DNA of 39,233 nt, taken from the sequence record MK903279.1; one strand, written 5' to 3'. This stretch comes from Escherichia phage Peacock. Position 1 is the stretch's first letter; every line of letters begins with the position of its first letter. Both the position numbers and the translations under genes were made by a program. The notes below the pieces were generated by a model. The model was not told where the DNA came from and did no database searches. It saw only the letters and a program-made list of their open reading frames with translations. Shown here piece after piece: positions 2,762-38,648 of the stretch.

Positions 2762-2784
2762 ACTTAACTATCACTATAGGACTC
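2762..2784 (+). promoter_or_regulatory. Phage RNA polymerase promoter immediately upstream of gene 1
   Basis: ACTTAACTATCACTATAGGACTC fits the 11-copy family consensus (TAAACTATCACTATAGGGA), +1 G at 2779. Confidence 0.6.
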
Positions 2785-2853
2785 AAGGTCTAAGACTCCA
2801 AGTGAAAGACCAAAGAGACTTTAAGTGAAAGACTAATAACAAGGACTTTAAGT

Positions 2854-5535
2854 ATGAGCGTCATCTCTATTGACAAACACGACTTCTCTGATGTGTCGAA
2901 CGCCATTGAGCCGTTTAACCTGCTGGCTGACCACTACGGGCAAGACCTTGCAGTCAAACAGCTTCAGCTTGAGCATGAGGCATACACTGAAGGCGAGCGA
3001 CGTTTCATCAAAAACCTTGAGCGACAGACTGAGCGCGGGGAACTGGCAGACAATCAGGTCGCCAAGCCTTTGATGCAGACTCTGGTCCCTAAGATTGCGC
3101 AAGCCGTCAGGGAGTGGCATGAAGGTCAAGACGGGAAGCTGTCAACCTCTCGTCCTAGCGTAGCGTTCACCATGTTGAGCACTGAAGAGAAGGCCGTTAA
3201 AGACCGCTCTATGCGCATCTCCTGCGAGTCTGCTGCGGTTATCATACTGAAGGTCATCCTCAGCAAGCTGGTCAAGCCTGAAGGGATACCGATTACACCG
3301 ATGGCCTCAGCGATAGGTCGCACACTTGAGGATGAAATCCGCTTCGGTCGCATTCGTGACAAGGAGAAGGAGCACTTCAAGAAGGCGATAGCTGATAACC
3401 TGAATAAGCGGGCTGGGGCATCCTACAAAAAAGCCTACATGCAAGCGGTTGAGGCATCCATGCTGGAGCAAGGACAACTGGAAGATGCGTGGGGGACTTG
3501 GAGTCCGACCGAGGCTGTCCACGTTGGAATCAAGATGCTTGAGATTGTCATCCAGTCAACACAACTGGTCGAGCTTAAGCGCTACGGTGCTGGCAATGCA
3601 GCGGCTGATGTAGAGATGGTCCACCTGTCAGACTTCTGGGTCAAGAAGATGGCACAACGAGGCTTCAGCCTTGCGGGTATCGCTCCGGTCTATCAACCTT
3701 GCGTCGTTCCACCTAAGCCGTGGACTGGTGTCGTAGGCGGTGGGTACTGGGCCAAAGGTCGCAGACCACTACCATTGATTCGCTTAGGGTCTAAGTCTGC
3801 GGTGGCACGCTATGAAGACGTGTACATGCCTGAAGTCTATGACGCTGTGAATATCATCCAGAATACGCCTTGGAAAGTGAACAAGAAGGTGCTGGACGTG
3901 GTGAACATGGTCGAGAAGTTGAACAACACGCCTATTGATGACATCCCTCAGATGGAGCCACTGAAGCCTGAAGACTATGCGGGTGAGACTGAAGAGGAAC
4001 TCAAGGCATGGAAGAAGACTGCTGCTGGTATCTACCGCCGAGAGAAGGCCCGCCAGTCACGCAGATTGTCACTGAGCTTTATCGTTAACCAAGCGAACAA
4101 GTTCTCTCAGTTCAAGGCCATCTGGTTCCCGTATAACATGGACTGGCGCGGTCGCGTCTACGCTGTGCCGATGTTCAACCCTCAGGGTAACGACATGCAA
4201 AAGGGTCTCCTGACTCTGGCAGTCGGTAAGCCTATTGGTGCTGATGGTTTCAAATGGCTGAAGGTCCACGGTGCAAACTGTGCGGGTGTCGATAAAGTCA
4301 CCTTCGAGGAGCGCATCAAGTGGGTGGAAGATAACCACGACAACATCATGGCTACCGCTAAGGCACCGATGGACAGCATTGAGTGGTGGGGTAAGTTAGA
4401 CTCTCCGTTCTGCTTCCTAGCGTTCTGCTTCGAGTATGCTGGCGTAATGCACCACGGTTTGTCTTACTCCTGCTCGCTGCCGATAGCTTTCGATGGGTCC
4501 TGCTCTGGGATTCAGCACTTCAGCGCGATGCTTCGTGATCACATCGGTGGACATGCAGTAAACCTGACGCCTTCCGGTAAGGTCCAAGACATCTACCGCA
4601 TCGTGTCTGACCGCATTGAGGAGGAGCTTAAAGTCCTGCTGGTTAATGGCACGGACAACGAGGTGGTCACTCACGAGGATAAGAAAACTGGCGAGATTAC
4701 CGAACGTATCAAGCTGGGGACACGAGAGCTGGCCCGCCAGTGGCTGACCTACGGTATGTCACGCAAGGTCCCTAAGCGTTCAGTAATGACTCTGGCCTAC
4801 GGGTCGAAAGAGTATGGCTTCGCAGACCAAGTTTACGAGGACATCGTGATGCCAGCGATTGACTCAGGGTCTGGCGCTATGTTCACCGAGCCAAGCCAAG
4901 CGTCTCGCTTCATGGCTAAGATGATTTGGGAAGCTGTGAGTGGAACCGTAGTTGCTGCTGTTGACGTGATGAAGTGGCTTCAGGGTGCTGCCAAGCTGCT
5001 GGCTGCTGAAGTGAAGGACAAGAAGACTGGAGAAATCCTGAAGCCTTGCCTTCCGGTACACTGGGTCACACCTGATGGGTTCCCGGTCTGGCAGGAATAT
5101 CGCAAGAAGGATACCACTCGTCTGAACCTGATGTTCTTAGGGTCATTCAACCTTCAACCTACGGTCAACAAAGGCACGAAGAAAGAGCTGGACAGGCACA
5201 AGCAGGAGTCAGGCATTAGCCCGAACTTCGTCCACTCACAAGATGGAAGCCACCTACGCAAGACTGTAGTCCACACGCATCGCAAGTATGGCGTGATATC
5301 ATTCGCAGTGATTCACGATAGCTTCGGGACCATCCCGGCTGACGCTGAGTATCTGTTCCGTGGTGTCCGTGAGACGATGGTCGAGACCTACCGAGACAAC
5401 GATGTGCTGTTGGACTTCTACGAGCAGTTTGACTGCCAGCTTCACGAGAGCCAGCGCGACAAGTTGCCAGAGCTTCCGAAGAAAGGTAAACTGAATATCG
5501 AGGACATCTTGTCTTCAGACTATGCATTCGCTTAA
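2854..5535 (+). CDS. Single-subunit DNA-dependent RNA polymerase (T7 gene 1 homolog)
   Basis: 893 aa; N-terminus KHDFSDVSNAIEPFNLLADHYG and C-terminus ...HESQRDKLPELPKKGKLNIEDILSSDYAFA match T7 RNAP as recalled (...FAFA end); specificity-loop region PTVNKGTKKELDRHKQESG present. Confidence 0.97.
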   Translation: MSVISIDKHDFSDVSNAIEPFNLLADHYGQDLAVKQLQLEHEAYTEGERRFIKNLERQTERGELADNQVAKPLMQTLVPKIAQAVREWHEGQDGKLSTSRPSVAFTMLSTEEKAVKDRSMRISCESAAVIILKVILSKLVKPEGIPITPMASAIGRTLEDEIRFGRIRDKEKEHFKKAIADNLNKRAGASYKKAYMQAVEASMLEQGQLEDAWGTWSPTEAVHVGIKMLEIVIQSTQLVELKRYGAGNAAADVEMVHLSDFWVKKMAQRGFSLAGIAPVYQPCVVPPKPWTGVVGGGYWAKGRRPLPLIRLGSKSAVARYEDVYMPEVYDAVNIIQNTPWKVNKKVLDVVNMVEKLNNTPIDDIPQMEPLKPEDYAGETEEELKAWKKTAAGIYRREKARQSRRLSLSFIVNQANKFSQFKAIWFPYNMDWRGRVYAVPMFNPQGNDMQKGLLTLAVGKPIGADGFKWLKVHGANCAGVDKVTFEERIKWVEDNHDNIMATAKAPMDSIEWWGKLDSPFCFLAFCFEYAGVMHHGLSYSCSLPIAFDGSCSGIQHFSAMLRDHIGGHAVNLTPSGKVQDIYRIVSDRIEEELKVLLVNGTDNEVVTHEDKKTGEITERIKLGTRELARQWLTYGMSRKVPKRSVMTLAYGSKEYGFADQVYEDIVMPAIDSGSGAMFTEPSQASRFMAKMIWEAVSGTVVAAVDVMKWLQGAAKLLAAEVKDKKTGEILKPCLPVHWVTPDGFPVWQEYRKKDTTRLNLMFLGSFNLQPTVNKGTKKELDRHKQESGISPNFVHSQDGSHLRKTVVHTHRKYGVISFAVIHDSFGTIPADAEYLFRGVRETMVETYRDNDVLLDFYEQFDCQLHESQRDKLPELPKKGKLNIEDILSSDYAFA

Positions 5536-5547
5536 CAGGAGAGAGTT

Positions 5548-5763
5548 ATGAAATTTGCACACAAGCAGACTGGCGTTAAGGGTGGGACCCAAATCGTGAC
5601 CGTAACAGAGCACAATGGTAAGGGTCTAGTGAAGACCACGGTCATCCCTACCGAGATGTCAAAGCAGCTTAATGTCCCATTCAAGACTCTTGTATATCTG
5701 GTCGAGTCAAGCCACGAGAAGTACCTGAAGGACGCAGTGTCCAAACTGGAGCAGACCAAATGA
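5548..5763 (+). CDS. Hypothetical protein (71 aa)
   Basis: GGAGAG RBS 6 nt upstream of ATG; no counterpart recalled at this position in T7. Confidence 0.55.
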   Translation: MKFAHKQTGVKGGTQIVTVTEHNGKGLVKTTVIPTEMSKQLNVPFKTLVYLVESSHEKYLKDAVSKLEQTK

Positions 5764-6004: not shown

Positions 6005-6304
6005 ATGGTCGGCCTGAAGTTCAAGGCTCTGTTCAATAGCCTCTACCAGCCGACTGAGTTCAAGACCGGGCCTGGAGCATGCGGTAAGATTGTGACGCAC
6101 TTCACCACGAGTCGAGACGAGCGGACCCTGACCATCCACCAGCACCACACGGATGGCTCTCAGAAGGACTTTGAGTACCGACTGAGCGACATCGACGGTC
6201 GCATCCAGTATGACTACGAGCAAGTTAAAGTCTATGGACAGGAGGCCGAACGTGAGCGAGCGATTCAGGCATTCACGCAGGTAAGACCGCGCATCATCTT
6301 CTAA
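6005..6304 (+). CDS. Hypothetical protein (99 aa); possibly the C-terminal part of an amber-interrupted gene
   Basis: Same frame as 5843..5959, separated by one TAG and 15 sense codons; own GAGGT RBS. Confidence 0.5.
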   Translation: MVGLKFKALFNSLYQPTEFKTGPGACGKIVTHFTTSRDERTLTIHQHHTDGSQKDFEYRLSDIDGRIQYDYEQVKVYGQEAERERAIQAFTQVRPRIIF

Positions 6305-6322
6305 ACTATCACTATAGGATTA
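6300..6322 (+). promoter_or_regulatory. Phage promoter (phi1.1-like)
   Basis: CTAAACTATCACTATAGGATTAG; +1 G at 6317. Confidence 0.7.
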
Positions 6323-8080: not shown

Positions 8081-8086
8081 CGTCAA

Positions 8087-8139: not shown

Positions 8140-8162
8140 CCTAAGCTATCACTATAGGACAA
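8140..8162 (+). promoter_or_regulatory. Phage promoter
   Basis: CTAAGCTATCACTATAGGACAAC; +1 G at 8157. Confidence 0.65.
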
Positions 8163-8858: not shown

Positions 8859-9017
8859 ATGAGCCTTGAAGAAAAGAAATACATCGTGGAGCTTGAGGGT
8901 CGCGTTCAGTCCTTCGAGGTTCCGGTGTATGCAAAGTCTCTTGAAGAGGCTACTCTGAAGTCCCAAGAGTATGAGGACGCTGGGTTTGTGGTCGGACGGA
9001 TTCGTCCTGAGACCTAA
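8859..9017 (+). CDS. Gp2-like inhibitor of host RNA polymerase
   Basis: Start set at ATG 8859 (GGAGAAAGGG RBS); ...[32 protein letters not shown] resembles T7 Gp2 (...[33 protein letters not shown]) as recalled. Confidence 0.8.
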
Positions 9018-9035
9018 ACTATCACTGTAGGACAG
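9013..9035 (+). promoter_or_regulatory. Phage promoter, divergent copy (phi2.5-like)
   Basis: CCTAAACTATCACTGTAGGACAG; G in place of A at -3. Confidence 0.55.
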
Positions 9036-10225: not shown

Positions 10226-10449
10226 TGACTCAGGAAGTTAAGGTCGTTCGTCAGCGTCTGACCATTGATAAAATCCCGGTAGGCTATGCGTTTATCGTCC
10301 ACGGTAAGCCGGGTGAAGTGTACGTGAAGATTAGTAACTCTCACGTCTTCAACCATAAGTTACTCCAGATGCACACCACGGATGCTAACCGCTTCCAACG
10401 TCATCTGAACCTCGTAGCTGTAGAGCTGGTGGTGTATGATGGTGAGTAA
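10225..10449 (+). CDS. Hypothetical protein (74 aa) inserted between endonuclease I and lysozyme
   Basis: AAGGAG RBS; ATG 10225 overlaps the gene 3 stop; 3' end overlaps the lysozyme start; no motif recognised. Confidence 0.55.
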   Translation: MTQEVKVVRQRLTIDKIPVGYAFIVHGKPGEVYVKISNSHVFNHKLLQMHTTDANRFQRHLNLVAVELVVYDGE

Positions 10450-10897
10450 GGTGCAATTCAACCCACGGTCACGGACTGACGCTATCTTCGTTCACTGTTC
10501 GGCTACCAAGCCAGAGATGGACATCGGGGTAGAGACCATCCGTATGTGGCACAAGCAGCAAGGATGGCTGGACGTAGGCTACCACTTTATCATCAAGCGC
10601 GATGGTACTGTGGAAGAGGGTCGCCCGGTCAATGTCGTAGGGTCACACGTTAAGGACTGGAACTCCAAGTCCGTAGGCGTCTGCCTTGTAGGTGGAATCA
10701 ACGCTAAGGGTCAGTTTGAAGCTAACTTCACTCCAGCCCAGATGAACTCCCTGCGCAACAAGCTGGCTGACCTGAAGGCCCTGTATCCTCAGGCAGAAAT
10801 CAAAGCACACCATGACGTAGCACCAAAGGCGTGTCCAAGTTTCGACTTACAACGCTGGCTGTCTACCAATGAGCTGGTCACTTCCGACCACGGTTAA
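10436..10897 (+). CDS. N-acetylmuramoyl-L-alanine amidase / T7-type lysozyme (gene 3.5 homolog)
   Basis: ...RTDAIFVHCSATKP...WLDVGYHFIIKRDGTVEEGR...VGVCLVGGI...AHHDVAPKACPSFDL... matches T7 lysozyme including its zinc-ligand positions. Confidence 0.93.
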   Translation: MMVSKVQFNPRSRTDAIFVHCSATKPEMDIGVETIRMWHKQQGWLDVGYHFIIKRDGTVEEGRPVNVVGSHVKDWNSKSVGVCLVGGINAKGQFEANFTPAQMNSLRNKLADLKALYPQAEIKAHHDVAPKACPSFDLQRWLSTNELVTSDHG

Positions 10898-10921: not shown

Positions 10922-11137
10922 ATGATTAAACTTATCGAATTTCTCGGTCGTCTGGTGGTGCGTGGTTATCGTCGTGCTGCGGTTATGGAACGAAAGGTAG
11001 CAGAGAAGACTGCTGACGGTGCGGCTGATGCTGCTGCTCTGGCTGACAAGCTGACCATCGCGTCACTGGAAGCTGGCATGAAGGCACGTCAGGCTGACAC
11101 CAAAGCTGACCAGTTGTCTAAGTTCTTCAAAGCCTAA
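10922..11137 (+). CDS. Hypothetical Ala/Lys-rich protein (71 aa)
   Basis: AAGGAGAA RBS; no motif recognised. Confidence 0.5.
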   Translation: MIKLIEFLGRLVVRGYRRAAVMERKVAEKTADGAADAAALADKLTIASLEAGMKARQADTKADQLSKFFKA

Positions 11138-11155
11138 ACTATCACCTTAGGGATG
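11133..11155 (+). promoter_or_regulatory. Phage promoter, divergent copy (phi3.8-like)
   Basis: CCTAAACTATCACCTTAGGGATG; CT in place of TA at -4/-3. Confidence 0.5.
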
Positions 11156-12949: not shown

Positions 12950-13113
12950 TGTTAAAGAAACTTAAAGCTCGATACCATCGGTTCATGTACAAATGGTGGA
13001 GCGATGAAGCAACCTGCCTGTCGAACATTCTGGGAGACCAGAGGTTCGACTCTAAGGCATGGAAGAAAGCTAACCGGAAGTTCATGTACCACTTCTTGCG
13101 TACAGACTTATAG
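12949..13113 (+). CDS. Small basic hypothetical protein (54 aa, GTG start)
   Basis: GGAGG RBS 7 nt upstream of GTG 12949; not in ORF track (below 60 aa). Confidence 0.4.
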
Positions 13114-13160
13114 GTCTAGACTCAAGGTCATTCACATCGAGTGGCCTTTATGATTAGACT
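13114..13160 (+). promoter_or_regulatory. RNase III-type processing hairpin (R4.7-like)
   Basis: GGTCTAGACTCAAGGTCATTCACATCGAGTGGCCTTTATGATTAGAC; AAGGTCAT can pair with GTGGCCTT (G-U pairs allowed). Confidence 0.5.
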
Positions 13161-13177
13161 AAAGCGGAGGATTAACC

Positions 13178-17052: not shown

Positions 17053-17075
17053 ACTAAACTATCACTATAGGGACT
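17053..17075 (+). promoter_or_regulatory. Phage promoter (phi6.5-like)
   Basis: CACTAAACTATCACTATAGGGACTTT; +1 G at 17070. Confidence 0.7.
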
Positions 17076-17136
17076 TTAGGACCTAAGATATGACTATAAG
17101 ATAGACTTTAGTCTTAACTTAAAGAGGAGATTCAAG

Positions 17137-18309: not shown

Positions 18310-19878
18310 ATGGCTGAACGTGAAGGGTTCGCTGCTGAAGGAGCCAAAGCGGTCTATGACCGACTGAAGAACGGTAGACAGCCATATGAGACACGCGCTC
18401 AGAACTGTGCTGCTGTCACTATCCCGTCACTATTTCCTAAGGAGTCAGACAACTCGTCTACCGAGTACACAACTCCGTGGCAAGCTGTAGGTGCTCGCTG
18501 TCTTAACAACTTGGCTGCAAAGCTGATGTTGGCGTTATTCCCTCAGTCACCGTGGATGCGTCTGACAGTCTCAGAATACGAGGCCAAGACCTTGAGTCAA
18601 GACTCAGAGGCAGCTGCTCGTGTTGACGAAGGGCTGGCTATGGTCGAACGTGTGTTAATGGCCTACATGGAGACTAACAGCTTCCGTGTTCCACTGTTCG
18701 AAGCTCTGAAACAGCTTATCGTCTCAGGTAACTGTCTTCTCTACATTCCTCCTCCAGAACAAGGAACCTACAGTCCCATGCGAATGTACCGCTTAGTGTC
18801 TTACGTTGTTCAACGTGATGCGTTCGGTAACATCTTGCAGATTGTGACTCTCGACAAGGTAGCGTTCAGTGCCCTACCGGAAGACGTGAAGTCTCAGCTC
18901 AACGCAGACGACTATGAGCCTGACACCGAGCTTGAAGTGTATACGCACATCTACCGTCAAGACGACGAGTATCTACGCTACGAGGAAGTGGAAGGAATTG
19001 AGGTAGCAGGGACCGATGGTTCCTACCCGCTGACTGCATGTCCGTACATCCCGGTACGAATGGTTCGACTGGATGGTGAAGACTACGGTCGTTCTTACTG
19101 CGAAGAGTATCTGGGAGACCTGAACTCTCTGGAGACGATTACAGAAGCTATCACCAAAATGGCTAAGGTAGCCTCCAAGGTGGTGGGCCTCGTTAACCCG
19201 AACGGCATCACGCAACCTCGACGTCTGAACAAGGCGGCTACAGGTGAGTTCGTTGCTGGTCGCGTTGAGGACATCAACTTCCTGCAACTGACGAAAGGTC
19301 AGGACTTTACGATTGCTAAGTCGGTGGCTGACGCTATCGAGCAACGTTTAGGCTGGGCCTTCCTTCTTAATAGTGCTGTTCAGCGTAATGCCGAGCGTGT
19401 CACTGCTGAAGAGATTCGTTATGTTGCTGGCGAACTGGAGGCGACCTTAGGTGGCGTGTACTCAGTACAGTCACAAGAGCTTCAGTTACCTATCGTCCGT
19501 GTGCTGATGAACCAGCTTCAGTCTGCTGGAATGATTCCTGACCTTCCGAAAGAAGCGGTAGAGCCTACGGTCTCCACTGGTCTGGAAGCGTTAGGTCGTG
19601 GTCAAGACTTAGAGAAGCTGACTCAGGCAGTCAACATGATGACCGGGCTACAGCCTCTGCAACAGGACCCAGACATTAACTTGCCGACCCTGAAGCTGCG
19701 ACTGCTGAATGCCTTAGGCATTGACACCGCTGGTCTACTCCTTACGCAGGACGAGAAGTTGCAACGTATGGCTGAACAATCCGCTCAAGGAGCTGTGGTC
19801 AACGGTGCGTCTGCTGCTGGTGCTAACATGGGAGCTACTGTTGGACAAGTAGCTGGTGAGGACGTGGCTCAAGCCTAA
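18310..19878 (+). CDS. Portal (head-to-tail connector) protein (T7 gene 8 homolog)
   Basis: ...YETRAQNCAA.TIPSLFPKESDNSSTEYTTPWQAVGAR.LNNLA.KLMLALFP... and ...YRLVSYVVQRDAFGNILQ... match T7 gp8. Confidence 0.95.
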   Translation: MAEREGFAAEGAKAVYDRLKNGRQPYETRAQNCAAVTIPSLFPKESDNSSTEYTTPWQAVGARCLNNLAAKLMLALFPQSPWMRLTVSEYEAKTLSQDSEAAARVDEGLAMVERVLMAYMETNSFRVPLFEALKQLIVSGNCLLYIPPPEQGTYSPMRMYRLVSYVVQRDAFGNILQIVTLDKVAFSALPEDVKSQLNADDYEPDTELEVYTHIYRQDDEYLRYEEVEGIEVAGTDGSYPLTACPYIPVRMVRLDGEDYGRSYCEEYLGDLNSLETITEAITKMAKVASKVVGLVNPNGITQPRRLNKAATGEFVAGRVEDINFLQLTKGQDFTIAKSVADAIEQRLGWAFLLNSAVQRNAERVTAEEIRYVAGELEATLGGVYSVQSQELQLPIVRVLMNQLQSAGMIPDLPKEAVEPTVSTGLEALGRGQDLEKLTQAVNMMTGLQPLQQDPDINLPTLKLRLLNALGIDTAGLLLTQDEKLQRMAEQSAQGAVVNGASAAGANMGATVGQVAGEDVAQA

Positions 19879-19896
19879 ACTATCACTATAGGAACA
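19874..19896 (+). promoter_or_regulatory. Phage promoter (phi9-like)
   Basis: CCTAAACTATCACTATAGGAACA; overlaps the portal stop. Confidence 0.7.
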
Positions 19897-20885: not shown

Positions 20886-20908
20886 ACTAAACTATCACTA
20901 TAGGGAGA
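20886..20908 (+). promoter_or_regulatory. Phage promoter (phi10-like), best consensus match
   Basis: ACTAAACTATCACTATAGGGAGACC; initiating GGGAGA as in T7 class III promoters. Confidence 0.75.
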
Positions 20909-22324: not shown

Positions 22325-22328
22325 TTGA

Positions 22329-22368
22329 AACCCCTTGGGTGCCTTCGGGTGCTTGAGGGGTTTTTTTG
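22329..22368 (+). terminator. Intrinsic terminator (T-phi-like) after the capsid gene
   Basis: CCCCTTGGGTGCC - TTCG - GGTGCTTGAGGGG (13-bp stem with G-U pairs, UUCG tetraloop) followed by TTTTTTT; closely resembles T7 T-phi as recalled. Confidence 0.8.
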
Positions 22369-22382: not shown

Positions 22383-22949
22383 ATGGCTCAATACATTCCA
22401 CTAAATGCTAACGATGACTTAGATGCCATCAACGATATGTTAGCTACTATCGGTGAACCAGCAGTCCTACAGCTTGACGAAGGTAACGCTGACGTCTCGA
22501 ACGCCCAACGTATCCTGCATCGTGTTAATCGTCAGGTCCAAGCTAAAGGCTGGAACTTTAACATCAACGAAGCTGCTGTCCTGACACCTGATATCCAAGA
22601 CAACAGGATTCGATTCCTACCGTCATACCTTCGGGTCATGACTGCTGGTGCTACCAGTTACTACAGCAACATGGGGGGCTATCTCTATGACCTGTCCACT
22701 CAGTCCACGACCTTCACTGGACCAATTACAGTCGAACTGGTGGAGATGAAACCGTTCGCTGAGATGCCTGTAGTATTCCGTGACTACATCGTTACCAAGG
22801 CTAGCCGTGAGTTCAACGCTAAGTTCTTCGGTAGCCCAGAGTCTGAACTGTACCTTCGTGAGCAGGAAGCAGAACTCTACCAGCAGGTGATGGAGTACGA
22901 GATGGACACTGGTCGATACAACATGATGTCCGACATCGGGAGGGACTAA
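22383..22949 (+). CDS. Tail tubular protein A (T7 gene 11 homolog)
   Basis: ...A.NDMLATIGEP.V..L.EGNAD..NAQRIL...NRQ.Q.KGW.FNI... and ...YIVTKASREFNAKFFG.PE... match T7 gp11. Confidence 0.92.
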   Translation: MAQYIPLNANDDLDAINDMLATIGEPAVLQLDEGNADVSNAQRILHRVNRQVQAKGWNFNINEAAVLTPDIQDNRIRFLPSYLRVMTAGATSYYSNMGGYLYDLSTQSTTFTGPITVELVEMKPFAEMPVVFRDYIVTKASREFNAKFFGSPESELYLREQEAELYQQVMEYEMDTGRYNMMSDIGRD

Positions 22950-23176
22950 TGTCTAGTCACAACCTGAAGATTCACCGCCAGCACTTTGGCCCGGTACAAC
23001 TAGGTCTAAAGACAGCAGAGCTGAGACTTAACGACCGGGACTTTAAGGTTGGCGACTGGCTTATCCTGAATGAGTGGGACAACGGGTATACTGGACAACA
23101 GGTAGCACGTAAGGTTGTCCACATTGCTGACGTTGGTGACATCGCTGAGGGATACGTCCTAATGAGTATGATTTAA
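22949..23176 (+). CDS. ASCH/DUF3850-like small protein inserted between tail tubular genes A and B
   Basis: HNLKIHRQHFGPVQLGLKTAELRLNDRDFKVGDWLILNEWDNGYTGQQVARKVVHI...EGYVLMSMI fits the DUF3850 pattern as recalled; ATG overlaps the gp11 stop (TAATG). Confidence 0.6.
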   Translation: MSSHNLKIHRQHFGPVQLGLKTAELRLNDRDFKVGDWLILNEWDNGYTGQQVARKVVHIADVGDIAEGYVLMSMI

Positions 23177-23185
23177 GGAGGGCCT

Positions 23186-25543: not shown

Positions 25544-25567
25544 CTTATTGAAGGGCCTATAGATTTA

Positions 25568-25590
25568 CCTTAACTATCACTATAGGGACT
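25568..25590 (+). promoter_or_regulatory. Phage promoter (phi13-like), embedded in a 10-bp inverted repeat
   Basis: CCTTAACTATCACTATAGGGACT; flanked by GGGCCTATAG (25553-25562) and CTATAGGCCC (25589-25598). Confidence 0.7.
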
Positions 25591-31900: not shown

Positions 31901-32848
31901 CAGGGCTTCCTGTCTGACATCGTGGAGCATAGTCTGACTGGTAGTAAGCGTCGGTTCGATGACCGCTGGCTGAAGACCGCTGGTATCTCTGACGAGCAGT
32001 GGAAGGGCATTAAGTCCCTAATCCGTGAGTCAGTGACTCGTGGTCCAGACGGGAAGTACACCATCAAGGACAAGAAGGCGTTCAGTCAGGACCCAAGGGC
32101 TATGGACCTGTGGCGTATGGGTGACACCATCGCTGACGAAACGTTACTAAGGCCTCATAAGCTGTCTAACATGGACGCCAAGGCTTATGGTCCTCTCGCT
32201 AAGACTGTCCTTCAGTTTAAGAACTTCGTCATCAAGTCCATCAATGGGCGAACCATGCGAACCTTCTATAACGCCACGAAGAACAACCGAGCGATGGATG
32301 CTGCCCTATCTACCGTGATGTCTATGGGTCTGGCTGGTATCTACTACATGGCTCAGGCTCACGTCAAGGCTTACGCTATGCAGGATGGTAGAGACCGTGA
32401 ATACCTCAAGCAAGCTCTGGACCCGATGATGATTGGTTATGCGGCTCTGTCCCGTAGTTCACACCTTGGTGGCCCACTTGGGGTAGCTAACATTCTAGGT
32501 GGCATCGCTGGGTATGAGGACACTAAGATGCTCCGTTCGTCTATCCTACCTCGTTCACCTACAGAGAAGCCTGAACGTGCTATCGCGTATGGTGCGGCTA
32601 CAAGTGACCCTGTGATGAATGTCGTTGGTAACTTTTTGGAGCAGGTTCCAGCTTTCGGATATGCTGCTAACGTTGGTGCTTCTGCTTATAACTTGGCTGG
32701 CTACCTCAAGGCTGATACTCGTGTCAACGAGCGAGACTACATGACCGGGATGTATAATACGTTCCGTGAACTGGTCCCGAACGACCCAATTACCCAGAAG
32801 CTATTACTTGGAACGTTTGAGGAGCAAGGTATCCACATCAAGGACTAA
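28961..32848 (+). CDS. Internal virion protein D (T7 gene 16 homolog) with an atypical N-terminal domain
   Basis: 1295 aa; from about residue 190 onward (...RLEARETARN..., ...VRSPTGMQSGASGK..., ...RELMENPA.FG..., ...GTYVPHVY..., ...ENNSFLEARNLFDSD..., ...VNGDIAIMA.TGKTTK...) matches T7 gp16; N-terminal RNNNPGNIR-containing region does not match the T7 lytic transglycosylase domain as recalled. Confidence 0.9.
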   Translation: MATRGIRNNNPGNIRVSKDQWEGMTGDDGAFVTFDSPESGVRALGKNLLSYGRQGYDSIEKIINRWAPPNENDTKAYIDSVVAATGIPATQSLDLSDPDTLSSLAQAISFHETGSRYDPEVYQKGVARALTGISPKTPPVSANVFDALTEGLKAKPKVALGENLPTSAGLNIEGQAPEAPNESFGEMFYKATGETMQEQEDRSTWFGFGAATEAEVKNSMVGVAIRAGQTEDSLDVIGDVFNPTRWNNHKWSREELDQIRNAGVLPQYYGVITGGSPQNLTELINLALENQKLDAEKAKAGTGAQLAAGVIGAGVDPLTYVPIAGQVGKGGKLVNKMFTVAAQSGALAGVSEMARTSVAGGDAHVAEAILGGALFGGGMTAIADGLGRALGRNTNEFAGPATRLEARETARNVDGQDLSRLPIQEGEQTFSHQGVKFADVPNEPGSVRLEDGSILIGENPLNPKTRQVFDEVIEPERAAAGVNLGGLTEIGLKLLRSENPEIRGVAADLVRSPTGMQSGASGKIGTTASDVFERLRAVDHRFYNDIDDAVTEALKDPYFQTAFWRDSGAFRQDIYQRVSMAIEDGSGNLKAELTPGELKVYDLLKNQFDAKREMMENPAMFGRPDAKSIFPGSRFKGTYVPHVYSNQMKELYIKELGSPEALQEAIKKSWLTSYASRPEVKKRVDEALLEADPTLTPEGLAAAVDKYANDKAYGISHTEQFERSSVMEENINGLVGLENNSFLEARNLFDSDMSIVLPNGQTFSVNNLREWDMDKIVPAYNRRVNGDIAIMAGTGKTTKDMKDLVETMMNKAGDDGKLKGEVSTLRDTLKILTGRARRDGADDAAFATVMRTMTDLSFFAKNAYMGVQNLTEIGGMLARGNVRALLHGVPMFRDLAFRNKKVGASEVKDLHNVIFGKELDDSIRPSKQDVIDRLRSYSDLGRGAATALGTAKYYTGELAVRSPFTKVLNGTTNYLLDAGRQGFLSDIVEHSLTGSKRRFDDRWLKTAGISDEQWKGIKSLIRESVTRGPDGKYTIKDKKAFSQDPRAMDLWRMGDTIADETLLRPHKLSNMDAKAYGPLAKTVLQFKNFVIKSINGRTMRTFYNATKNNRAMDAALSTVMSMGLAGIYYMAQAHVKAYAMQDGRDREYLKQALDPMMIGYAALSRSSHLGGPLGVANILGGIAGYEDTKMLRSSILPRSPTEKPERAIAYGAATSDPVMNVVGNFLEQVPAFGYAANVGASAYNLAGYLKADTRVNERDYMTGMYNTFRELVPNDPITQKLLLGTFEEQGIHIKD

Positions 32849-32866
32849 ACTATCACTATAGGAAAC
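32844..32866 (+). promoter_or_regulatory. Phage promoter (phi17-like)
   Basis: GACTAAACTATCACTATAGGAAACG; overlaps the gene 16 stop. Confidence 0.7.
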
Positions 32867-32912: not shown

Positions 32913-35612
32913 ATGTCTACTATTACACAATTCCCTTCAGGAAACACTCAGTACAGGATTGAGTTCGACTACCTAGCCAGAACGTTTGTTGTTGTTACGC
33001 TGGTGAATAGCTCTAACCCAGCCCTGAACCGTGTACTGGAAGTTGGTCGAGATTACCGATTCCTTAATCCAACAATGATTGAGATGTTGGTTGACCAATC
33101 AGGTTTCGACATCGTTCGTATTCACCGTCAGACTGGAACTGACTTAGTGGTAGACTTCAGGAATGGCTCAGTGTTGACATCTAGTGACCTGACCAATGCA
33201 GAGCTTCAGGCTATCCATATTGCAGAAGAGGGTCGAGACCAAACTGTTGACTTAGCGAAGGAATATGCCGATGCTGCTGGTAGCTCTGCTGGCAACGCTA
33301 AGGATAGCGAGGACGAAGCACGACGAATCGCTGAGAGTATCAAGACCGCTGGCCTACTGGGGTATGTTACCCGTCGCTCCTTCGAGAAAGGCTTCAACAT
33401 TACTGCATGGAACGAGGCACTGCTGTGGGAAGCGGATGGTAACTATTACTGCTGGGATGGTACACTTCCAAAGAACGTTCCTGTTGGCTCAACTCCTGAG
33501 ACTGCTGGTGGTATTGGTAACGGGAAGTGGGTCAGTATTGGAGATGCGGCACTACGAGGGCAGATTTCAGACCCTGAAGGTGCAACAAAATATCCTGAAC
33601 TACAAATTGCTCGCTGGCGTGATAATGGCGATCCGCGTGGATGGGGGGCTATTGGTGATGGAGTTACAGATGACACATTAGCGTTACAAGCGTGTTTTGA
33701 CACCGCTACTTGCGACATAGATTTAGGTGGAAAGACATATTTAGTTAGAAAAAATCCCACATTGGCTGCTACATATCCTAATGAGCCTGACTTCTCTGAT
33801 GGTTCTTATAACTACAGTCCTTGTTTGGCACTAGTAGGTAAAAAGAACATCAAGATTCACAATGGAGCGCTCATTGTTGAAACTCATGGTCTCGATGCAA
33901 TTAGTCTTATTGCGTGTGAGCATGTTACTGTTGATTTAACAATCAAGGGTCCAGGCATCTTCCCAGCGATCGATACACCAACCGGATATGCAGAGAAAGG
34001 TGAGGCAAACTTCGGTTACGACTCGTCCTTATTGCTAGCCCCAAACAATGCCCTTGATACAAGTGCATACACTGGAGGGGCATACGCAGGAGTAGCAGGT
34101 CAGTTCCCTAAATACAATGCGGATGGAAGTCAAGCTTCTGGTTGGCAAAGTACATGGGGTACATTCCTTGGTGGCTACATCGGTAGCTGGGCTTGTGGTG
34201 TTAAGGTGCAGCGTGCATGCCGTGGTATTCTGATCAATGACTGTGACATCTCTGGGTTTAACTTTGGTGCTGTAGGTATTGGAATCCGTAACACAGCAGC
34301 GGCCTATGGTGCAAGTGATTACACCACAGATGCAGATATACCTGATGGTGTTATGGTTATTAACACACGCATTCGCAAGTGCTACAGTGCAGGTATCTAC
34401 GTCCTATCTGGTTATCGCCTTAACTACATGGCGAACAACATTGAAGACATCGGTCACCCTAATGGCAATGATGCATTGAACGCAAGCTATGACCCCGGCT
34501 ATGGTATTACCCATGGTCGCAATCGTCGCATCCGTAATGTAACGATTACAGAGAACATGATTCGTAACTGCCGACGCAAGTGTATTGACTTCCACGGAGG
34601 TGGTCAGGCTATCATCGCCAAAAACCATTGCCTTGAGCATGGTGTTGTTGGTATCTACGCTAAGTGCGGTCCGGGCTGGTCGCCCAACTACGAACCATAC
34701 AACCTGATTATCGCTGACAACTATGTTCGTTCACGTGATGTTCCAGCAAGTGAAACCACAGGTCCACTTATTGGTGCTAAGTATACTCGAAGCATCGATG
34801 TAGGTGGTGGTGGTGAGGCAACACAGGCTACCTATCCAGACCCGTTTGTCAAGATTCACAATAACTATTGTGAGCTTCGTGCATACGATGGAGTGGCAAT
34901 TAGTACAGGCGCAGGTGATGACAATTACAATGTCTTCATGGACATTGATGTCAGCCACAACACGGTTGTGCTTAAGTGCAACACACCTAACAACTTCGCA
35001 GAGGGCATCGGCATTAACGCAGGTGCAGCATCTAACAAGGTGTATCGTGGGCAGAGAGTCAAGCTTATTGGTAACAGCATTAAGCAGCTAAACACACTCA
35101 ACCTAACCTATCGAAGTGCAGGGTATAAGATTCAGGGTATCCCTAAATCACTTATAATGCATGGCAATACGTTGGACTTGAATGTGTCTACTCAGAGTTG
35201 CAAGCTGTGTGACTTCGTTATCGACAGTCGTATAAACTACAGCTTCGAAGGGAACCAAGTGTTAAGCTTCAGTGCTCGTGACAGTGCAACTCTGCAAGAG
35301 GTGTGGTTGTACGACAATATGAAGATCACACGTCCAGCGGCAGCAGCAGCAGCTACCATCAGTGGCAATCTGTTCCGTGGCATCTGGCAGGTATGCATTG
35401 CAGGTACAGGTGATGCCTTTGGTGCCAAGCAGACACAGTTTGCAAGCACTGGCTCAGGCGGTACAGGGTTCGATGTGGTTCGTTCAGCTACTACAGGCTT
35501 CATTGCCACCTTTGGCATTGGTGCAAGCGGCTTAATAGTGCCAGCAGTAACCCAAGAGTCTCAGGTGCAAATCAACCTTAAGTTGGTTAGCTCATTGGAT
35601 TCTGTAGCTTAG
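32913..35612 (+). CDS. Tail fiber / tailspike: T7 gp17-type N-terminal adaptor fused to a pectate-lyase-like beta-helix (putative polysaccharide depolymerase)
   Basis: N-terminus ...IEFDYLARTFVVVTLVN...DYRF...LVDF.NGSVL...AE.Q..HIAEEGRD... matches T7 gp17 residues 1-150; downstream WGAIGDGVTDDTLALQACFD is the hallmark motif of pectate-lyase-fold glycosidases and tailspikes; third codon positions become A/T-rich from about 33580. Confidence 0.88.
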   Translation: MSTITQFPSGNTQYRIEFDYLARTFVVVTLVNSSNPALNRVLEVGRDYRFLNPTMIEMLVDQSGFDIVRIHRQTGTDLVVDFRNGSVLTSSDLTNAELQAIHIAEEGRDQTVDLAKEYADAAGSSAGNAKDSEDEARRIAESIKTAGLLGYVTRRSFEKGFNITAWNEALLWEADGNYYCWDGTLPKNVPVGSTPETAGGIGNGKWVSIGDAALRGQISDPEGATKYPELQIARWRDNGDPRGWGAIGDGVTDDTLALQACFDTATCDIDLGGKTYLVRKNPTLAATYPNEPDFSDGSYNYSPCLALVGKKNIKIHNGALIVETHGLDAISLIACEHVTVDLTIKGPGIFPAIDTPTGYAEKGEANFGYDSSLLLAPNNALDTSAYTGGAYAGVAGQFPKYNADGSQASGWQSTWGTFLGGYIGSWACGVKVQRACRGILINDCDISGFNFGAVGIGIRNTAAAYGASDYTTDADIPDGVMVINTRIRKCYSAGIYVLSGYRLNYMANNIEDIGHPNGNDALNASYDPGYGITHGRNRRIRNVTITENMIRNCRRKCIDFHGGGQAIIAKNHCLEHGVVGIYAKCGPGWSPNYEPYNLIIADNYVRSRDVPASETTGPLIGAKYTRSIDVGGGGEATQATYPDPFVKIHNNYCELRAYDGVAISTGAGDDNYNVFMDIDVSHNTVVLKCNTPNNFAEGIGINAGAASNKVYRGQRVKLIGNSIKQLNTLNLTYRSAGYKIQGIPKSLIMHGNTLDLNVSTQSCKLCDFVIDSRINYSFEGNQVLSFSARDSATLQEVWLYDNMKITRPAAAAAATISGNLFRGIWQVCIAGTGDAFGAKQTQFASTGSGGTGFDVVRSATTGFIATFGIGASGLIVPAVTQESQVQINLKLVSSLDSVA

Positions 35613-36220: not shown

Positions 36221-36270
36221 GTGTTAGACTCAAGGTCATTACTATATGTAGTGGCCTTTATGGTTAACAC
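36221..36270 (+). promoter_or_regulatory. RNase III-type processing hairpin (R18.5-like)
   Basis: GTGTTAGACTCAAGGTCATTACTATATGTAGTGGCCTTTATGGTTAACAC; third copy of the 6318/13114 element. Confidence 0.5.
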
Positions 36271-36321
36271 TAACTAGTGGAGGCGACTCTACGTGAAATA
36301 TGATAAACCGGGAGGGCAACT

Positions 36322-36771: not shown

Positions 36772-38531
36772 GTAAAGACCTAGTGGCGCGTCAGGCGCTA
36801 ATGACTGCCCGTATGAAGGCAGACTTCGTGTTCTTCCTGTTCGTCCTGTGGAAAGCTCTGTCACTACCAGTCCCGACTCGCTGTCAGATTGACATGGCGA
36901 AGAAACTATCAGCTGGGGACAACAGGCGCTTCATCCTTCAGGCGTTCCGTGGTATCGGTAAGTCCTTCATTACGTGTGCCTTCGTGGTCTGGAAGCTATG
37001 GAACAACCCAGACTTGAAGTTCATGATTGTGTCGGCCTCAAAGGAACGAGCAGATGCGAACTCCATCTTCATCAAGCGAATCATCGACCTCATGCCACAG
37101 CTTCAGGAGCTCAAACCTAAGCAGGGACAGCGAGATGCGGTTATCAGCTTCGACGTTGGGCCAGCCAAGCCAGACCACTCACCTTCTGTTAAGTCAGTTG
37201 GTATCACTGGTCAGTTGACTGGTAGTCGTGCTGACATCCTGATTGCCGATGACGTGGAGGTTCCGAACAACTCAGCGACTCAGGCTGCACGAGACCGTCT
37301 GTCAGAGCTTGTGAAAGAGTTCGACGCTATTCTGAAGCCGGGAGGTACAATCATTTATCTGGGTACTCCTCAGAACGAGATGACCTTGTACCGTGAGCTG
37401 GAAGGTCGTGGATATACCACTACTATCTGGCCTGCTCGTTATCCACGCGACAGGAAGGACTGGCAGTCTTACGGCGACCGTCTGGCTCCTATGCTTCAGG
37501 CAGAGCTGGAAGAGGACCCTGAGTCCTTCTACTGGCGTCCGACTGATGAAGTACGATTCGATGATACGGACCTGAAGGAACGTGAGCTGTCCTACGGTAA
37601 AGCTGGCTTCGCTCTACAGTTCATGCTTAACCCGAACCTGAGTGATGCCGAGAAGTACCCTCTGAAGCTCCGTGACCTTATCGTAGCCGACTTGGACCCA
37701 GCGTCCAGCCCAATGGTCTACCAATGGTTGCCGAACCCTCAGAACAAGCGTGAGGACGTTCCTAACGTTGGACTCATTGGTGACTCGTACCACACGTATC
37801 AGACTGTAGGTTCTGCCTTCAGCTCATACACCCAGAAGATTCTGGTCATTGACCCTAGTGGTCGTGGTAAGGATGAAACTGGTTATGCGGTACTGTATCA
37901 GCTCAACGGCTACATCTTCGCTATGGAAGTAGGTGGTATGCGTGGTGGTTATGAAGACTCTACGTTGGAAGCCTTGGCTAAGATTGGTCGTAAGTGGAAG
38001 GTCAACGAGTACGTCATTGAGGGTAACTTCGGTGATGGTATGTACCTTGAGTTATTCAAGCCTGTAGCTGCCCGTATCCATCCTGCTGCTGTAACTGAAG
38101 TGAAGAGTAAGGGTCAGAAAGAACTACGCATCTGTGACGTTCTGGAGCCTATCATGGGGTCTCACAGACTTATCGTTAACGCTGCTGCTATCGTCCAAGA
38201 CTACCAGTCAGCCTCTGATAAGGATGGTGTTCGTAATCCTATCTACTCTCTCTTCTACCAGATGACACGTATATCTCGTGAACGTGGCGCCTTGGCACAC
38301 GATGACCGACTTGATGCGCTGGCTATCGGTGTACAGTTCTTCGTTGAGTCTATGGCTAAGGATGCCAACAAAGGCGAACGTGAAGTAACTGAGGAGTGGC
38401 TGGAGGAACAGATGGAGAACCCACGGAAAGGCTTCGAGTCCATCCACACTGAGTTCTGGGACAATGGGGTCCGGGTAACTCACGATACGGACGACGAGCT
38501 TGGACTAGGGTCCTACGTTACGTTCCACTAG
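36768..38531 (+). CDS. Terminase large subunit (T7 gene 19 homolog), TTG start
   Basis: ...[59 protein letters not shown]... matches T7 gp19 including the Walker A region; AAGGAGG RBS 7 nt upstream of TTG 36768 gives the same N-terminal length as T7. Confidence 0.95.
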
Positions 38532-38625
38532 CTGAATGAATAATTATAGGTGAAAGCTGCATGAATACGCGGTTAGTAACCTATAGTTACTACCAGTCTA
38601 ACCTACTGTTTTACAAGGAGTTTGG

Positions 38626-38648
38626 ACTTAACTATCACTATAGGGAAG
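38626..38648 (+). promoter_or_regulatory. Phage promoter (phiOR-like)
   Basis: GACTTAACTATCACTATAGGGAAGACC; +1 G at 38643. Confidence 0.7.

What the first reader, a model, noticed from the sequence alone, without database searches (positions are those of the whole stretch)
2762..38648. Eleven-member promoter family with -12 to -8 specificity different from T7
Eleven copies of a ~23-bp motif (consensus TAAACTATCACTATAGGGA; +1 G at 2779, 6317, 8157, 9030, 11150, 17070, 19891, 20903, 25585, 32861, 38643) occupy typical T7 promoter positions. They share the CACTATAGG core of T7/SP6/K11 promoters but read ACTAT at -12 to -8 where T7 has CGACT, implying a distinct polymerase specificity. Consistently, the polymerase specificity-loop region reads PTVNKGTKKELDRHKQESG where I recall T7 as PTINTNKDSEIDA(R/H)KQESG. 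Two copies are degenerate (CACTGTAGG at 9021-9031 and CACCTTAGG at 11142-11151) and may be weak or regulated promoters.
Basis: partly seen in the sequence, partly recalled or inferred. Interest (0 to 1): 0.45.

Follow-up and report, generated by a model that had tools for sequence, protein, structure and literature searches.

The report
Known K1F-type phage promoter set
The eleven repeats are the standard promoters of a K1F-like (Kayfunavirus) phage, read by the phage's own T7-type RNA polymerase; this promoter specificity, distinct from T7, is already described and already used as a synthetic-biology part.

Summary
Eleven copies of the motif lie on the + strand at the stated +1 positions. A weight matrix scores them 30.5-37 bits; the next best site scores 15 and shuffled sequence at most 11.9.

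The window is a unit-length Kayfunavirus genome, about 92-95% identical to ECG4, LS3, Vec13 and K1F. Phage K1F carries the same eleven sites at the same gene junctions, and both "degenerate" copies have the same core there.

The distinct specificity is real but already known. ACTAT at -12 to -8 pairs with polymerase residues S754, N756 and V761 (T7 numbering), and the window's polymerase has all three. Temme et al. 2012 grafted this loop into T7 polymerase and obtained orthogonal transcription. Takatsuki et al. 2025 purified the native Ro45lw polymerase (93.7% identical to the window's) and mapped initiation at the G of ACTTAACTATCACTATA-GGGA.

That is just downstream of the base-reading residues, so it is not the informative difference.

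Ten of the eleven sites match T7 promoter positions. The eleventh lies 75 nt upstream of the polymerase gene and has no T7 counterpart.

Verdict: real, ordinary, already known.

The parts
2762..2784 (+). Promoter upstream of gene 1 (RNAP), +1 G at 2779; ACTTAACTATCACTATA|GGACTC
   Evidence: It lies 75 nt before the RNAP ATG. T7 has no phage promoter here. It is conserved in all 10 other Kayfunavirus genomes looked at, and it switches to AACCCTCACTGTAGG in EcpYZU01.
6300..6322 (+). Promoter after gene 1, before the gene 1.2/1.3 block (phi1.1/1.3 equivalent), +1 at 6317
   Evidence: K1F has the same -16..+6 sequence at 5569 (-17 differs: T in the window, C in K1F). The TAA at -15..-13 is the stop codon of the upstream ORF.
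8140..8162 (+). phi1.6 equivalent, +1 at 8157; the only copy with GCTAT at -12..-8
   Evidence: It is identical in K1F, Ro45lw, ECG4 and Dev2. The Ro45lw record annotates the homologous site as phi1.6.
9013..9035 (+). phi2.5 equivalent, +1 at 9030; degenerate core CACTGTAGG (G at -3)
   Evidence: It is letter-identical in K1F, Ro45lw and ECG4, and is annotated phi2.5 in Ro45lw.
11133..11155 (+). Promoter before gene 4 (primase/helicase), +1 at 11150; degenerate core CACCTTAGG
   Evidence: The same core occurs in K1F, ECG4, Dev2 and LET1. The homologous EcpYZU01 site has C at -9.
17053..17075 (+). phi6.5 equivalent, +1 at 17070 (first late/class III-type promoter, GGGA start)
19874..19896 (+). 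phi9 equivalent, +1 at 19891
   Evidence: It overlaps the stop codon of gene 8.
20886..20908 (+). phi10 equivalent (major capsid), +1 at 20903; GGGAGA start as in T7 class III promoters
25568..25590 (+). phi13 equivalent, +1 at 25585
32844..32866 (+). phi17 equivalent (tail spike), +1 at 32861
   Evidence: The Ro45lw record annotates the homologous site as phi17. It overlaps the stop codon of gene 16.
38626..38648 (+). phiOR equivalent after gene 19, +1 at 38643
   Evidence: T7 phiOR sits at the equivalent place.
2854..5535 (+). Gene 1: single-subunit RNA polymerase (893 aa), the protein that reads the promoters
   Evidence: Identity is 98.0% to K1F gp1, 93.7% to Ro45lw gp1 and 63% to T7 RNAP.
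5098..5193 (+). Specificity loop (window aa 749-780 = T7 739-770). Base-reading residues in window numbering: R756, N758, N766, Q768 (= T7 R746, N748, R756->N, Q758). Also S764 (= T7 Q754->S) and V771 (= T7 I761->V).
   Evidence: The residue roles come from PMC8874028 and PMC11880802.
3130..3213 (+). AT-rich recognition loop equivalent (aa 93-103, DGKLSTSRPSV; T7 K93, R96 and K98 replaced by D, L and S), followed by an 11-aa insertion (aa 110-120, TEEKAVKDRSM) absent from T7
   Evidence: A role in reading the invariant C-16/T-15 is inferred, not shown.
22327..22364 (+). T-phi-like terminator (17-bp GC-rich stem followed by a T run) between gene 10 and gene 11
   Evidence: This is the same position as T7 Tphi.
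10436..10897 (+). Gene 3.5 (lysozyme/amidase, 68% identical to T7 gp3.5). In T7 this protein binds the RNAP and preferentially damps class II promoters.
   Evidence: The regulatory role is carried over from established T7 knowledge and was not tested here.

Best explanation
The window is one unit-length genome of a K1F-like phage (genus Kayfunavirus, Studiervirinae). The eleven repeats are its complete set of promoters for the phage-encoded single-subunit RNA polymerase, gp1 (2854-5535).

By analogy with T7 (inferred, not tested here), host RNA polymerase transcribes the left end and gene 1, and gp1 then binds each about 23-bp promoter as duplex DNA.

- The specificity-loop beta-hairpin reads the major groove at -12 to -7. 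Here it carries N at the position of T7 R756 and S at Q754, matching A at -9 and the ACTAT word instead of T7's CGACT.
- A remodelled N-terminal AT-rich loop probably reads the upstream part, NCTWA, with C-16 and T-15 invariant.
- The TATA at -4..-1 melts and transcription starts at the G of GG(G/A).

The sites before genes 1.1-4 act as middle (class II-type) promoters. These include the two off-consensus ones before genes 2.5 and 4. The sites from 6.5 onward act as late promoters, with a T-phi terminator after gene 10.

Shown here: the motif statistics, synteny and identity with K1F, the polymerase residues, and natural co-variation. Shown in the literature on near-identical or grafted enzymes: promoter activity, the +1 position and orthogonality to T7. 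Inferred: the class II/III timing, the weakness of the two degenerate sites, and the role of the AT-rich loop.
For: 1. Statistics. There are 11 sites, all on the + strand, against 0.01 expected. They score 30.5-37 bits, against 15 for the next best site and 11.9 for the best shuffle.

2. Identity. The window is 92-95% identical to Kayfunavirus genomes. K1F has the same 11 sites at the same junctions, with the same degenerate cores. Ten K1F-type genomes each have 11-12 such sites.

3. Placement. Every site lies in a gap or over the stop codon of the upstream gene. Ten of the eleven lie 31-272 nt upstream of a gene; the eleventh (38643) follows gene 19. Ten of the eleven correspond to T7 phi1.1/1.3, 1.6, 2.5, 3.8/4, 6.5, 9, 10, 13, 17 and OR. 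A T-phi-like terminator lies at 22327-22364.

4. Polymerase. The loop reads TRLNLMFLGSFNLQPTV against T7's TRLNLMFLGQFRLQPTI, which is exactly the 754S/756N/761V set listed for the ACTAT promoter.

5. Experiments on relatives.
- T7 RNAP carrying the K1F loop gives 17-fold induction on the ACTAT promoter and is orthogonal to the T7, T3 and N4-type promoters (PMC3458549).
- Purified native Ro45lw RNAP transcribes from ACTTAACTATCACTATAGGGA, with +1 = G established by 5' deep sequencing (PMC12272871).
- Native K1F RNAP and PK1F are used as an orthogonal expression pair (PMC12218169).

6. Natural co-variation. EcpYZU01 is in the same genus, and its RNAP is 84.5% identical to the window's. It has D748/R756 in the loop, and all twelve of its promoters (the eleven syntenic with the window's plus one before gene 5) read A-C-(C/A)-C-T. 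The non-promoter look-alike downstream of phi6.5 stays essentially unchanged, with one base different in its core.

7. Cross-scan. The window's matrix finds no site above 12 bits in T7, and the T7 consensus scores -1.1 bits.
Against: - No transcript 5' ends or enzyme assays exist for this particular genome. Function is carried over from relatives with 93.7-98% identical polymerases.
- The Temme graft used T7's own upstream TAATA and gave only moderate induction (17-fold). The loop therefore explains -12..-8 but not necessarily the whole motif.
- N748 is unchanged although -11 and -10 differ from T7, so the residue-to-base logic at those two positions is not explained by simple one-to-one contacts.
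- The strength and timing of individual promoters, including the two degenerate ones and the gene-1 promoter, are untested.
Confidence: 0.95

Rival explanations
1. The repeats are not promoters. They are another kind of dispersed phage repeat, such as recombination, packaging or replication signals, that happens to resemble T7 promoters.
For: No transcript mapping exists for this genome. The terminal copy at 38643 sits where T7 phiOR also serves replication and packaging.
Against: - All copies are on the coding strand at gene junctions syntenic with T7 promoters.
- The identical sequence drives transcription by the Ro45lw polymerase in vitro, with +1 mapped.
- The sites co-vary with the polymerase loop in EcpYZU01.
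Confidence: 0.02
2. The promoter sequence differs from T7, but the polymerase is not really specific. It would use T7, T3 and K1F-type promoters about equally, so the ACTAT word reflects drift rather than a distinct specificity.
For: R746, N748 and Q758 are unchanged from T7. PMC11880802 describes Temme's grafted sets as having 'a limited extent of orthogonality'. No cross-promoter assay of a native Kayfunavirus polymerase against a T7 promoter was found in the papers read.
Against: - ACTAT or GCTAT is invariant across 11-12 sites in each of ten genomes.
- It switches as a block when residues 748 and 756 change.
- T7(K1F) was reported as highly orthogonal.
- Native K1F RNAP showed about 46,000-fold on-target activity against 6-27-fold off-target on the MmP1 and VP4 promoters.
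Confidence: 0.04
3. The specificity difference is encoded in the stretch the first reader quoted (window aa 769-787, PTVNKGTKKELDRHKQESG = T7 759-777), rather than in residues 754/756.
For: This stretch is the most divergent part of the loop region between the window and T7, with 8 of 19 residues different. T7 residues 759-770 are formally part of the specificity loop, defined as 739-770.
Against: - The graft that switched T7 RNAP to ACTAT covered only Q744-I761 and changed only 754, 756 and 761.
- The base contacts are R746, N748, R756 and Q758.
- EcpYZU01 keeps a very similar downstream stretch (PTVNRGNSKELDKHKQESG) yet uses T3-type promoters.
Confidence: 0.03

Closest known systems
Phage K1F (Kayfunavirus K1F) promoters and gp1 RNA polymerase, including the synthetic-biology parts PK1F, T7(K1F) and K1FR
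   Same: - The same 11 promoters occur at the same gene junctions, with the same degenerate cores.
- The polymerase is 98% identical, with an identical base-reading hairpin.
- The ACTAT word is the one used in PK1F.
   Different: - The window is a different isolate, about 94% nucleotide identity to K1F.
- It has a different tail-spike gene. The right half of the window aligns to K1F over only 86% of its length; that the unaligned part is gene 17 is inferred, not checked.
- It has no intron or HNH insertion in gene 5 (13178-15349 is uninterrupted).
- One conservative change lies just past the loop: R781, where K1F has K.
Escherichia phage Ro45lw RNA polymerase and promoter (Takatsuki et al. 2025, PMC12272871)
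   Same: - The polymerase is 93.7% identical with the same S/N/V loop residues.
- The tested minimal promoter ACTTAACTATCACTATAGGGA matches the window's sites at 38643 exactly and at 25585 except at -17.
   Different: - Ro45lw has a twelfth promoter before gene 5 that the window lacks.
- Its gene-1 and gene-4 promoters carry different off-consensus bases: CACTAAAGG and CACCTAAGG.
Phage T7 class II/III promoters and T7 RNA polymerase
   Same: - The same architecture: a 23-bp promoter, a CACTATAGG core and a +1 G.
- The same layout, with ten positions in common, and a T-phi terminator after gene 10.
- Off-consensus middle promoters and a consensus-like late set.
- R746, N748 and Q758 are conserved.
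   Different: - -12..-8 reads ACTAT, not CGACT. -17..-13 reads NCTWA, not TAATA.
- The polymerase has Q754S and R756N, a remodelled AT-rich loop and an 11-aa insertion.
- There are 11 promoters, not 17. There is no phiOL, phi1.5, 4c, 4.3 or 4.7, and the window has one extra promoter upstream of gene 1.
- The T7 consensus scores -1.1 bits on the window's matrix.
T3-type promoters (AACCCTCACTAAAGG), and their natural occurrence inside Kayfunavirus in Enterobacter phage EcpYZU01
   Same: The same family of polymerase and the same promoter layout. A at -12 and C at -11 are shared with the window's motif.
   Different: The T3 type has C at -10 and -9, paired with D748 and R756. The window has T-10 and A-9, paired with N748 and N756.

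Membership tests
T7-group (Studiervirinae) single-subunit RNAP promoters | Conserved motif of about 23 bp (-17..+6) with a CACTATAGG-type core and a purine (G) start | tested here: met
   There are 11 sites carrying 36 bits of information. Nine have an exact CACTATAGG and two are one- or two-base variants.
T7-group (Studiervirinae) single-subunit RNAP promoters | A cognate T7-like single-subunit RNA polymerase is encoded in the same genome | tested here: met
   Gene 1 (2854-5535) aligns end to end with T7 RNAP (E = 0, 63% identity).
T7-group (Studiervirinae) single-subunit RNAP promoters | All copies are co-oriented with the genes, at gene junctions syntenic with T7 promoters, with a T-phi terminator after gene 10 | tested here: met
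   All copies are on the + strand. Ten of the eleven are at T7-equivalent junctions. The terminator is at 22327-22364.
T7-group (Studiervirinae) single-subunit RNAP promoters | Transcripts start at the predicted +1 in infected cells or in vitro | not testable with these tools
   This has been shown only for the relative Ro45lw, in vitro (PMC12272871).
K1F-type (Kayfunavirus) promoter specificity class | ACTAT at -12..-8 in the promoter consensus | tested here: met
   Ten of the eleven sites read ACTAT and one reads GCTAT. This is the same word as PK1F and as the consensus CTWAACTATCACTATAGG reported for another Kayfunavirus (PMC13298934).
K1F-type (Kayfunavirus) promoter specificity class | Polymerase specificity hairpin with S754, N756 and V761 (T7 numbering), and R746, N748 and Q758 retained | tested here: met
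   TRLNLMFLGSFNLQPTV.
K1F-type (Kayfunavirus) promoter specificity class | The genome belongs to the K1F lineage, with promoters at the same junctions as in K1F | tested here: met
   Nucleotide identity to Kayfunavirus genomes is 92-95%. The site sets correspond one to one with NC_007456.
K1F-type (Kayfunavirus) promoter specificity class | The polymerase prefers its own promoter over the T7 promoter | not testable with these tools
   Literature on the grafted loop and on native K1F RNAP against MmP1 and VP4 promoters supports this. No assay exists for this isolate.
T7-type specificity (Teseptimavirus) | CGACT at -12..-8 with R756 in the polymerase | tested here: not met
   The window has ACTAT and N at that position. 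The cross-scan finds no site in T7 above 12 bits.
T3-type specificity | ACCCT at -12..-8 with D748 and R756 | tested here: not met
   The window has N748-equivalent and N756-equivalent residues and T-10/A-9. The T3 consensus scores 11.9 bits, against 30.5 or more for the real sites.

The most novel reading that the evidence does not exclude
The least explored aspect is not the ACTAT word but the rest of the recognition system.

First, the invariant C-16/T-15 may be read by the remodelled N-terminal AT-rich loop. In that loop T7 K93, R96 and K98 are replaced by D, L and S, and an 11-aa insertion follows. That would make a second, separately swappable specificity module. It co-varies with the upstream promoter bases in the one informative natural case: EcpYZU01 has a T7-like loop, no insertion, and AT-rich -17..-13.

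Second, the conserved promoter 75 nt upstream of gene 1 would put the polymerase gene under its own control. T7 lacks such a positive-feedback arrangement.

Neither point was found tested in the papers available here. However, I could not read the original K1F genome paper.
Probability: 0.3. Interest if true: 0.3.

Novelty: already known. Interest (0 to 1): 0.1.

Why it matters
It matters little as a discovery. The K1F-type promoter and polymerase pair has been in the literature since the K1F genome (2005). It has been engineered (2012, 2014), used as an orthogonal expression and mutagenesis system, and a native Kayfunavirus enzyme was characterised biochemically in 2025.

For this genome the result is useful annotation. 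It gives eleven phage promoters with +1 positions, a T-phi terminator, and the polymerase residues that set specificity.

The comparison also provides a clean natural control. Inside one genus, a change at polymerase residues 748 and 756 is accompanied by a concerted change of all promoters, including the degenerate ones. This supports the view that every one of the eleven sites is functional.

Tried and rejected
- Original papers. I tried to read the K1F genome paper (Scholl and Merril 2005, PMC1317022) and Chen and Schneider 2005 (PMC1275584) for the originally published promoter lists. Neither is held. "Known since 2005" therefore rests on citations of these papers and my own knowledge, while the hard evidence cited is from 2012 onward.
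- K1F GenBank records. NC_007456 and AM084414 carry no promoter features. Only the Ro45lw record annotates six of its sites.
- A twelfth promoter at 17099 (15 bits, CCTAAGATATGACTATAAGATAG). Rejected for three reasons. It has G at -7 and A at +2. It lies 29 nt inside the phi6.5 leader. In EcpYZU01 its upstream half stays TATATGAC and does not switch to the T3-type word as the true promoters do.
- Additional weak or minus-strand copies. None scores above 12 bits.
- A promoter before gene 5, as in Ro45lw, Dev2 and LET1. It is absent from the window; only TATAGG survives.
- Rfam scan of the window. No family matched.
- Sigma-70 and terminator scans of the left end. These were not enriched over shuffles and found no TE-like terminator after the ligase gene.
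- Failed calls. A first regular-expression attempt at aligning leaders failed and was redone. Other failed calls were 6, 9, 22, 39 and 51.
- Structure prediction of the polymerase. Considered but not run, because a DNA-free model would not decide any open point.

Full report

Yes. CACTATAGG occurs nine times, always on the + strand, where shuffles give 0.24.

A weight matrix over -17..+6 built from these eleven sites carries 36 bits. It scores them 30.5-37 bits. The next best position on either strand scores 15 bits (17099), everything else is below 8, and the best score in 20 shuffled windows is 11.9. Because the matrix was built from these same sites, their high scores are partly circular; searches are the independent support.

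C at -16 and T at -15 are invariant, giving CTWAACTATCACTATAGG.

Two quoted sub-ranges are off by one or two bases. CACTGTAGG is at 9023-9031 and CACCTTAGG at 11143-11151.

**2. What is the sequence?**

The window is 92-95% identical over its whole length to Escherichia phages ECG4, LS3, LS2, Vec13, LM33_P1 and K1F, all genus Kayfunavirus, subfamily Studiervirinae. It starts at the same bases as K1F and ends at the sequence that in K1F lies about 180 nt from the right end, the published length of K1F's terminal repeat. It therefore looks like one unit-length genome with a single copy of the repeat. A direct check that K1F's first and last 179 nt are identical failed.

Its genes are collinear with T7 genes 0.3 to 19.

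**3. Are these the known promoters of that lineage?**

Scanning K1F (NC_007456) with the window's matrix finds eleven sites at the same gene junctions, and both "degenerate" cores are the same there. ECG4, IME177, Ro45lw, Dev2, LET1, MBBL139, BHUENT8 and CHRF_20120 each have 11-12 sites with ACTAT at -12..-8 and NCTWA at -17..-13.

A 2026 genome note on another Kayfunavirus reports the consensus CTWAACTATCACTATAGG and calls the copies promoters (PMC13298934). The Ro45lw GenBank record annotates six of its copies as promoters, naming four of them phi1.6, phi2.5, phi6.5 and phi17. In IMG/VR the 18-mer occurs in multiple copies almost only on contigs of 39-40 kb.

**4. Placement**

Using T7 homology and the T7 record's own promoter annotation, the sites map as follows.

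| +1 position | Location or T7 equivalent |
|---|---|
| 2779 | 75 nt upstream of gene 1; no T7 counterpart |
| 6317 | after gene 1, before genes 1.2/1.3 |
| 8157 | phi1.6 |
| 9030 | phi2.5 |
| 11150 | before gene 4 |
| 17070 | phi6.5 |
| 19891 | phi9 |
| 20903 | phi10 |
| 25585 | phi13 |
| 32861 | phi17 |
| 38643 | phiOR |

Ten of the eleven therefore have T7 counterparts. The site before gene 1 does not: T7 has only E. coli promoters between phiOL and phi1.1A.

A 17-bp-stem terminator followed by a T run lies at 22327-22364 between genes 10 and 11, where T7 has T-phi.

In five promoters the TAA at -15..-13 is the stop codon of the upstream gene. T7 uses the same economy with its TAA at -17..-15 (coordinates).

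**5. The polymerase**

Gene 1 encodes 893 aa. It is 63% identical to T7 RNAP end to end, 98.0% to K1F gp1 and 93.7% to Ro45lw gp1.

T7's specificity loop is residues 739-770 and its AT-rich loop is 93-101. The base contacts are R746:G-7, N748:-11/-10, R756:G-9 and Q758:A-8 (PMC8874028; PMC11880802). In the HMMER alignment the window reads YRKKDTTRLNLMFLGSFNLQPTV where T7 reads YKKPIQTRLNLMFLGQFRLQPTI.

- R746, N748 and Q758 are kept.
- Q754 becomes S, R756 becomes N and I761 becomes V.
- This is exactly the set "754S, 756N, 761V - ACTAT" listed for the K1F graft (PMC11880802 Table 2).

But it corresponds to T7 759-777, downstream of the contacts. EcpYZU01 has nearly the same stretch yet uses different promoters, so it is not the informative part.

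**6. Experimental basis in the literature**

- Temme et al. 2012 replaced T7 Q744-I761 with the K1F sequence and T7 -12..-7 with the K1F consensus. They obtained 17-fold induction and described the set as highly orthogonal (PMC3458549).
- Segall-Shapiro et al. 2014 built a K1F-loop sigma-like fragment with its PK1F promoter (PMC4299498).
- Native K1F RNAP with PK1F is used as an orthogonal system in E. coli and Halomonas. On-target activity was about 46,000-fold, against 6-27-fold off-target on the MmP1 and VP4 promoters (PMC12218169).
- Takatsuki et al. 2025 purified the native Ro45lw polymerase. They showed transcription from ACTTAACTATCACTATAGGGACT, mapped +1 to the G by deep sequencing of 5' ends, and defined ACTTAACTATCACTATAGGGA as the minimal promoter (PMC12272871). 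That sequence equals the window's site at 38643, and the site at 25585 except at -17.

**7. A natural control found here**

Enterobacter phage EcpYZU01 is classified in the same genus, and its RNAP is 84.5% identical to the window's. Its loop reads TRLDLMFLGTFRLQ (D748, R756, as in T3), and its AT-rich loop is T7-like without the 11-aa insertion.

Its promoters at all the syntenic junctions read AACCCTCACTATAGG-type sequences with an AT-rich -17..-13. This includes the gene-1 site, and the gene-4 site, which reads ACACT.

By contrast, the promoter look-alike 29 nt downstream of phi6.5 (window 17082-17104) is conserved in all genomes and does not switch. This argues that all eleven sites, including the degenerate ones, are under selection as polymerase targets, and that the look-alike is something else. 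It may be part of a leader hairpin; the fold gives -10.1 kcal/mol.

**8. The two degenerate copies**

They lie before genes 2.5 and 4, which are replication functions. Their deviations (G at -3; C and T at -4/-3) persist in K1F, ECG4 and, with variations, in Dev2, LET1 and Ro45lw.

T7's own class II promoters are off-consensus in the same region, for example CACTAAAGG at phi1.5, 1.6, 3.8, 4c and 4.3, whereas its six late promoters are identical. From established T7 biology, class II promoters are weaker and more sensitive to gp3.5 lysozyme, and the window encodes a 68%-identical gp3.5. "Weak or regulated" is thus a fair but untested inference.

**9. What remains unexplained or unexplored**

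- N748 is unchanged although -11 and -10 differ from T7.
- The invariant C-16/T-15 and the remodelled AT-rich loop (K93D, R96L, K98S, plus an 11-aa insertion at aa 110-120) suggest a second recognition module. The Temme graft did not test this.
- The promoter ahead of gene 1 implies that the polymerase can transcribe its own gene.

I could not read the original K1F paper, so I cannot say whether these points were discussed there.

**10. Verdict**

Novelty: already known. Interest: low.

Noticed in passing
window 17082-17104 (pseudo +1 at 17099): A promoter look-alike, CCTAAGATATGACTATAAGATAG (15 bits), lies 29 nt downstream of the phi6.5 start. It is conserved in all ten relatives. Unlike the true promoters, it does not change to the T3-type word in EcpYZU01. 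It is probably a leader RNA element; an RNase III-type hairpin, as at T7 R6.5, is my guess.
   Followed up: partly
window 2762-2853: A phage promoter lies 75 nt upstream of the polymerase gene itself. T7 has no phage promoter there. It is conserved across the genus and co-varies with polymerase specificity in EcpYZU01, which implies positive feedback on gene 1.
   Followed up: partly
window 13095-13177: Ro45lw, Dev2, LET1, MBBL139 and BHUENT8 have a twelfth promoter before gene 5 (DNA polymerase). In the window, as in K1F and ECG4, the leader downstream is homologous but the promoter is gone; only ...ACTTATAGGTCT remains.
   Followed up: partly
window 6302-6304, 9015-9017, 11135-11137, 19876-19878, 32846-32848: In five promoters the conserved TAA at -15..-13 is the stop codon of the upstream gene, always in the same register. 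T7 does the same with its TAA at -17..-15 (for example genes 1.2, 8 and 16).
   Followed up: partly
L006 (Enterobacter phage EcpYZU01, NC_048135), RNAP 22885-25551: This member of the same genus has T3-type promoters (AACCCTCACTATAGG), D748/R756 in the loop, and a T7-like AT-rich loop without the insertion. This is a natural specificity switch within Kayfunavirus.
   Followed up: partly
window 3130-3213 (RNAP aa 93-120): The AT-rich recognition loop has lost T7's K93, R96 and K98 (now D, L and S). An 11-aa insertion, TEEKAVKDRSM, follows it. All K1F-type polymerases share this, and it coincides with the invariant C-16/T-15 in the promoters.
   Followed up: partly
window 22327-22364: A strong intrinsic-terminator-like hairpin (17 pairs followed by a T run) lies between genes 10 and 11, equivalent to T7 T-phi.
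   Followed up: partly
window 554-583: This is the best sigma-70-like site in the left end (TTGACA, 18-nt spacer, TAGTAT; 10 of 12 matches). It is a candidate early host-polymerase promoter like T7 A1-A3. The scan as a whole was not enriched over shuffles.
   Followed up: no
window 32913-35612 and 13178-15349: Gene 17 (899 aa) resembles T7 gp17 only in its first 112 aa or so. The right half of the window aligns to most relatives, including K1F, over only about 86% of its length, and to LS2 over 99%; a non-K1F tail-spike module shared with LS2 would explain this but was not checked. Gene 5 is uninterrupted, unlike K1F's intron/HNH-containing gene 5.
   Followed up: no
L104 (OR786095, 'Staphylococcus phage MBBL139'): This record is a typical Kayfunavirus. 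Its RNAP is 93% identical to the window's and it has 12 K1F-type promoters. The Staphylococcus aureus host label looks implausible.
   Followed up: no
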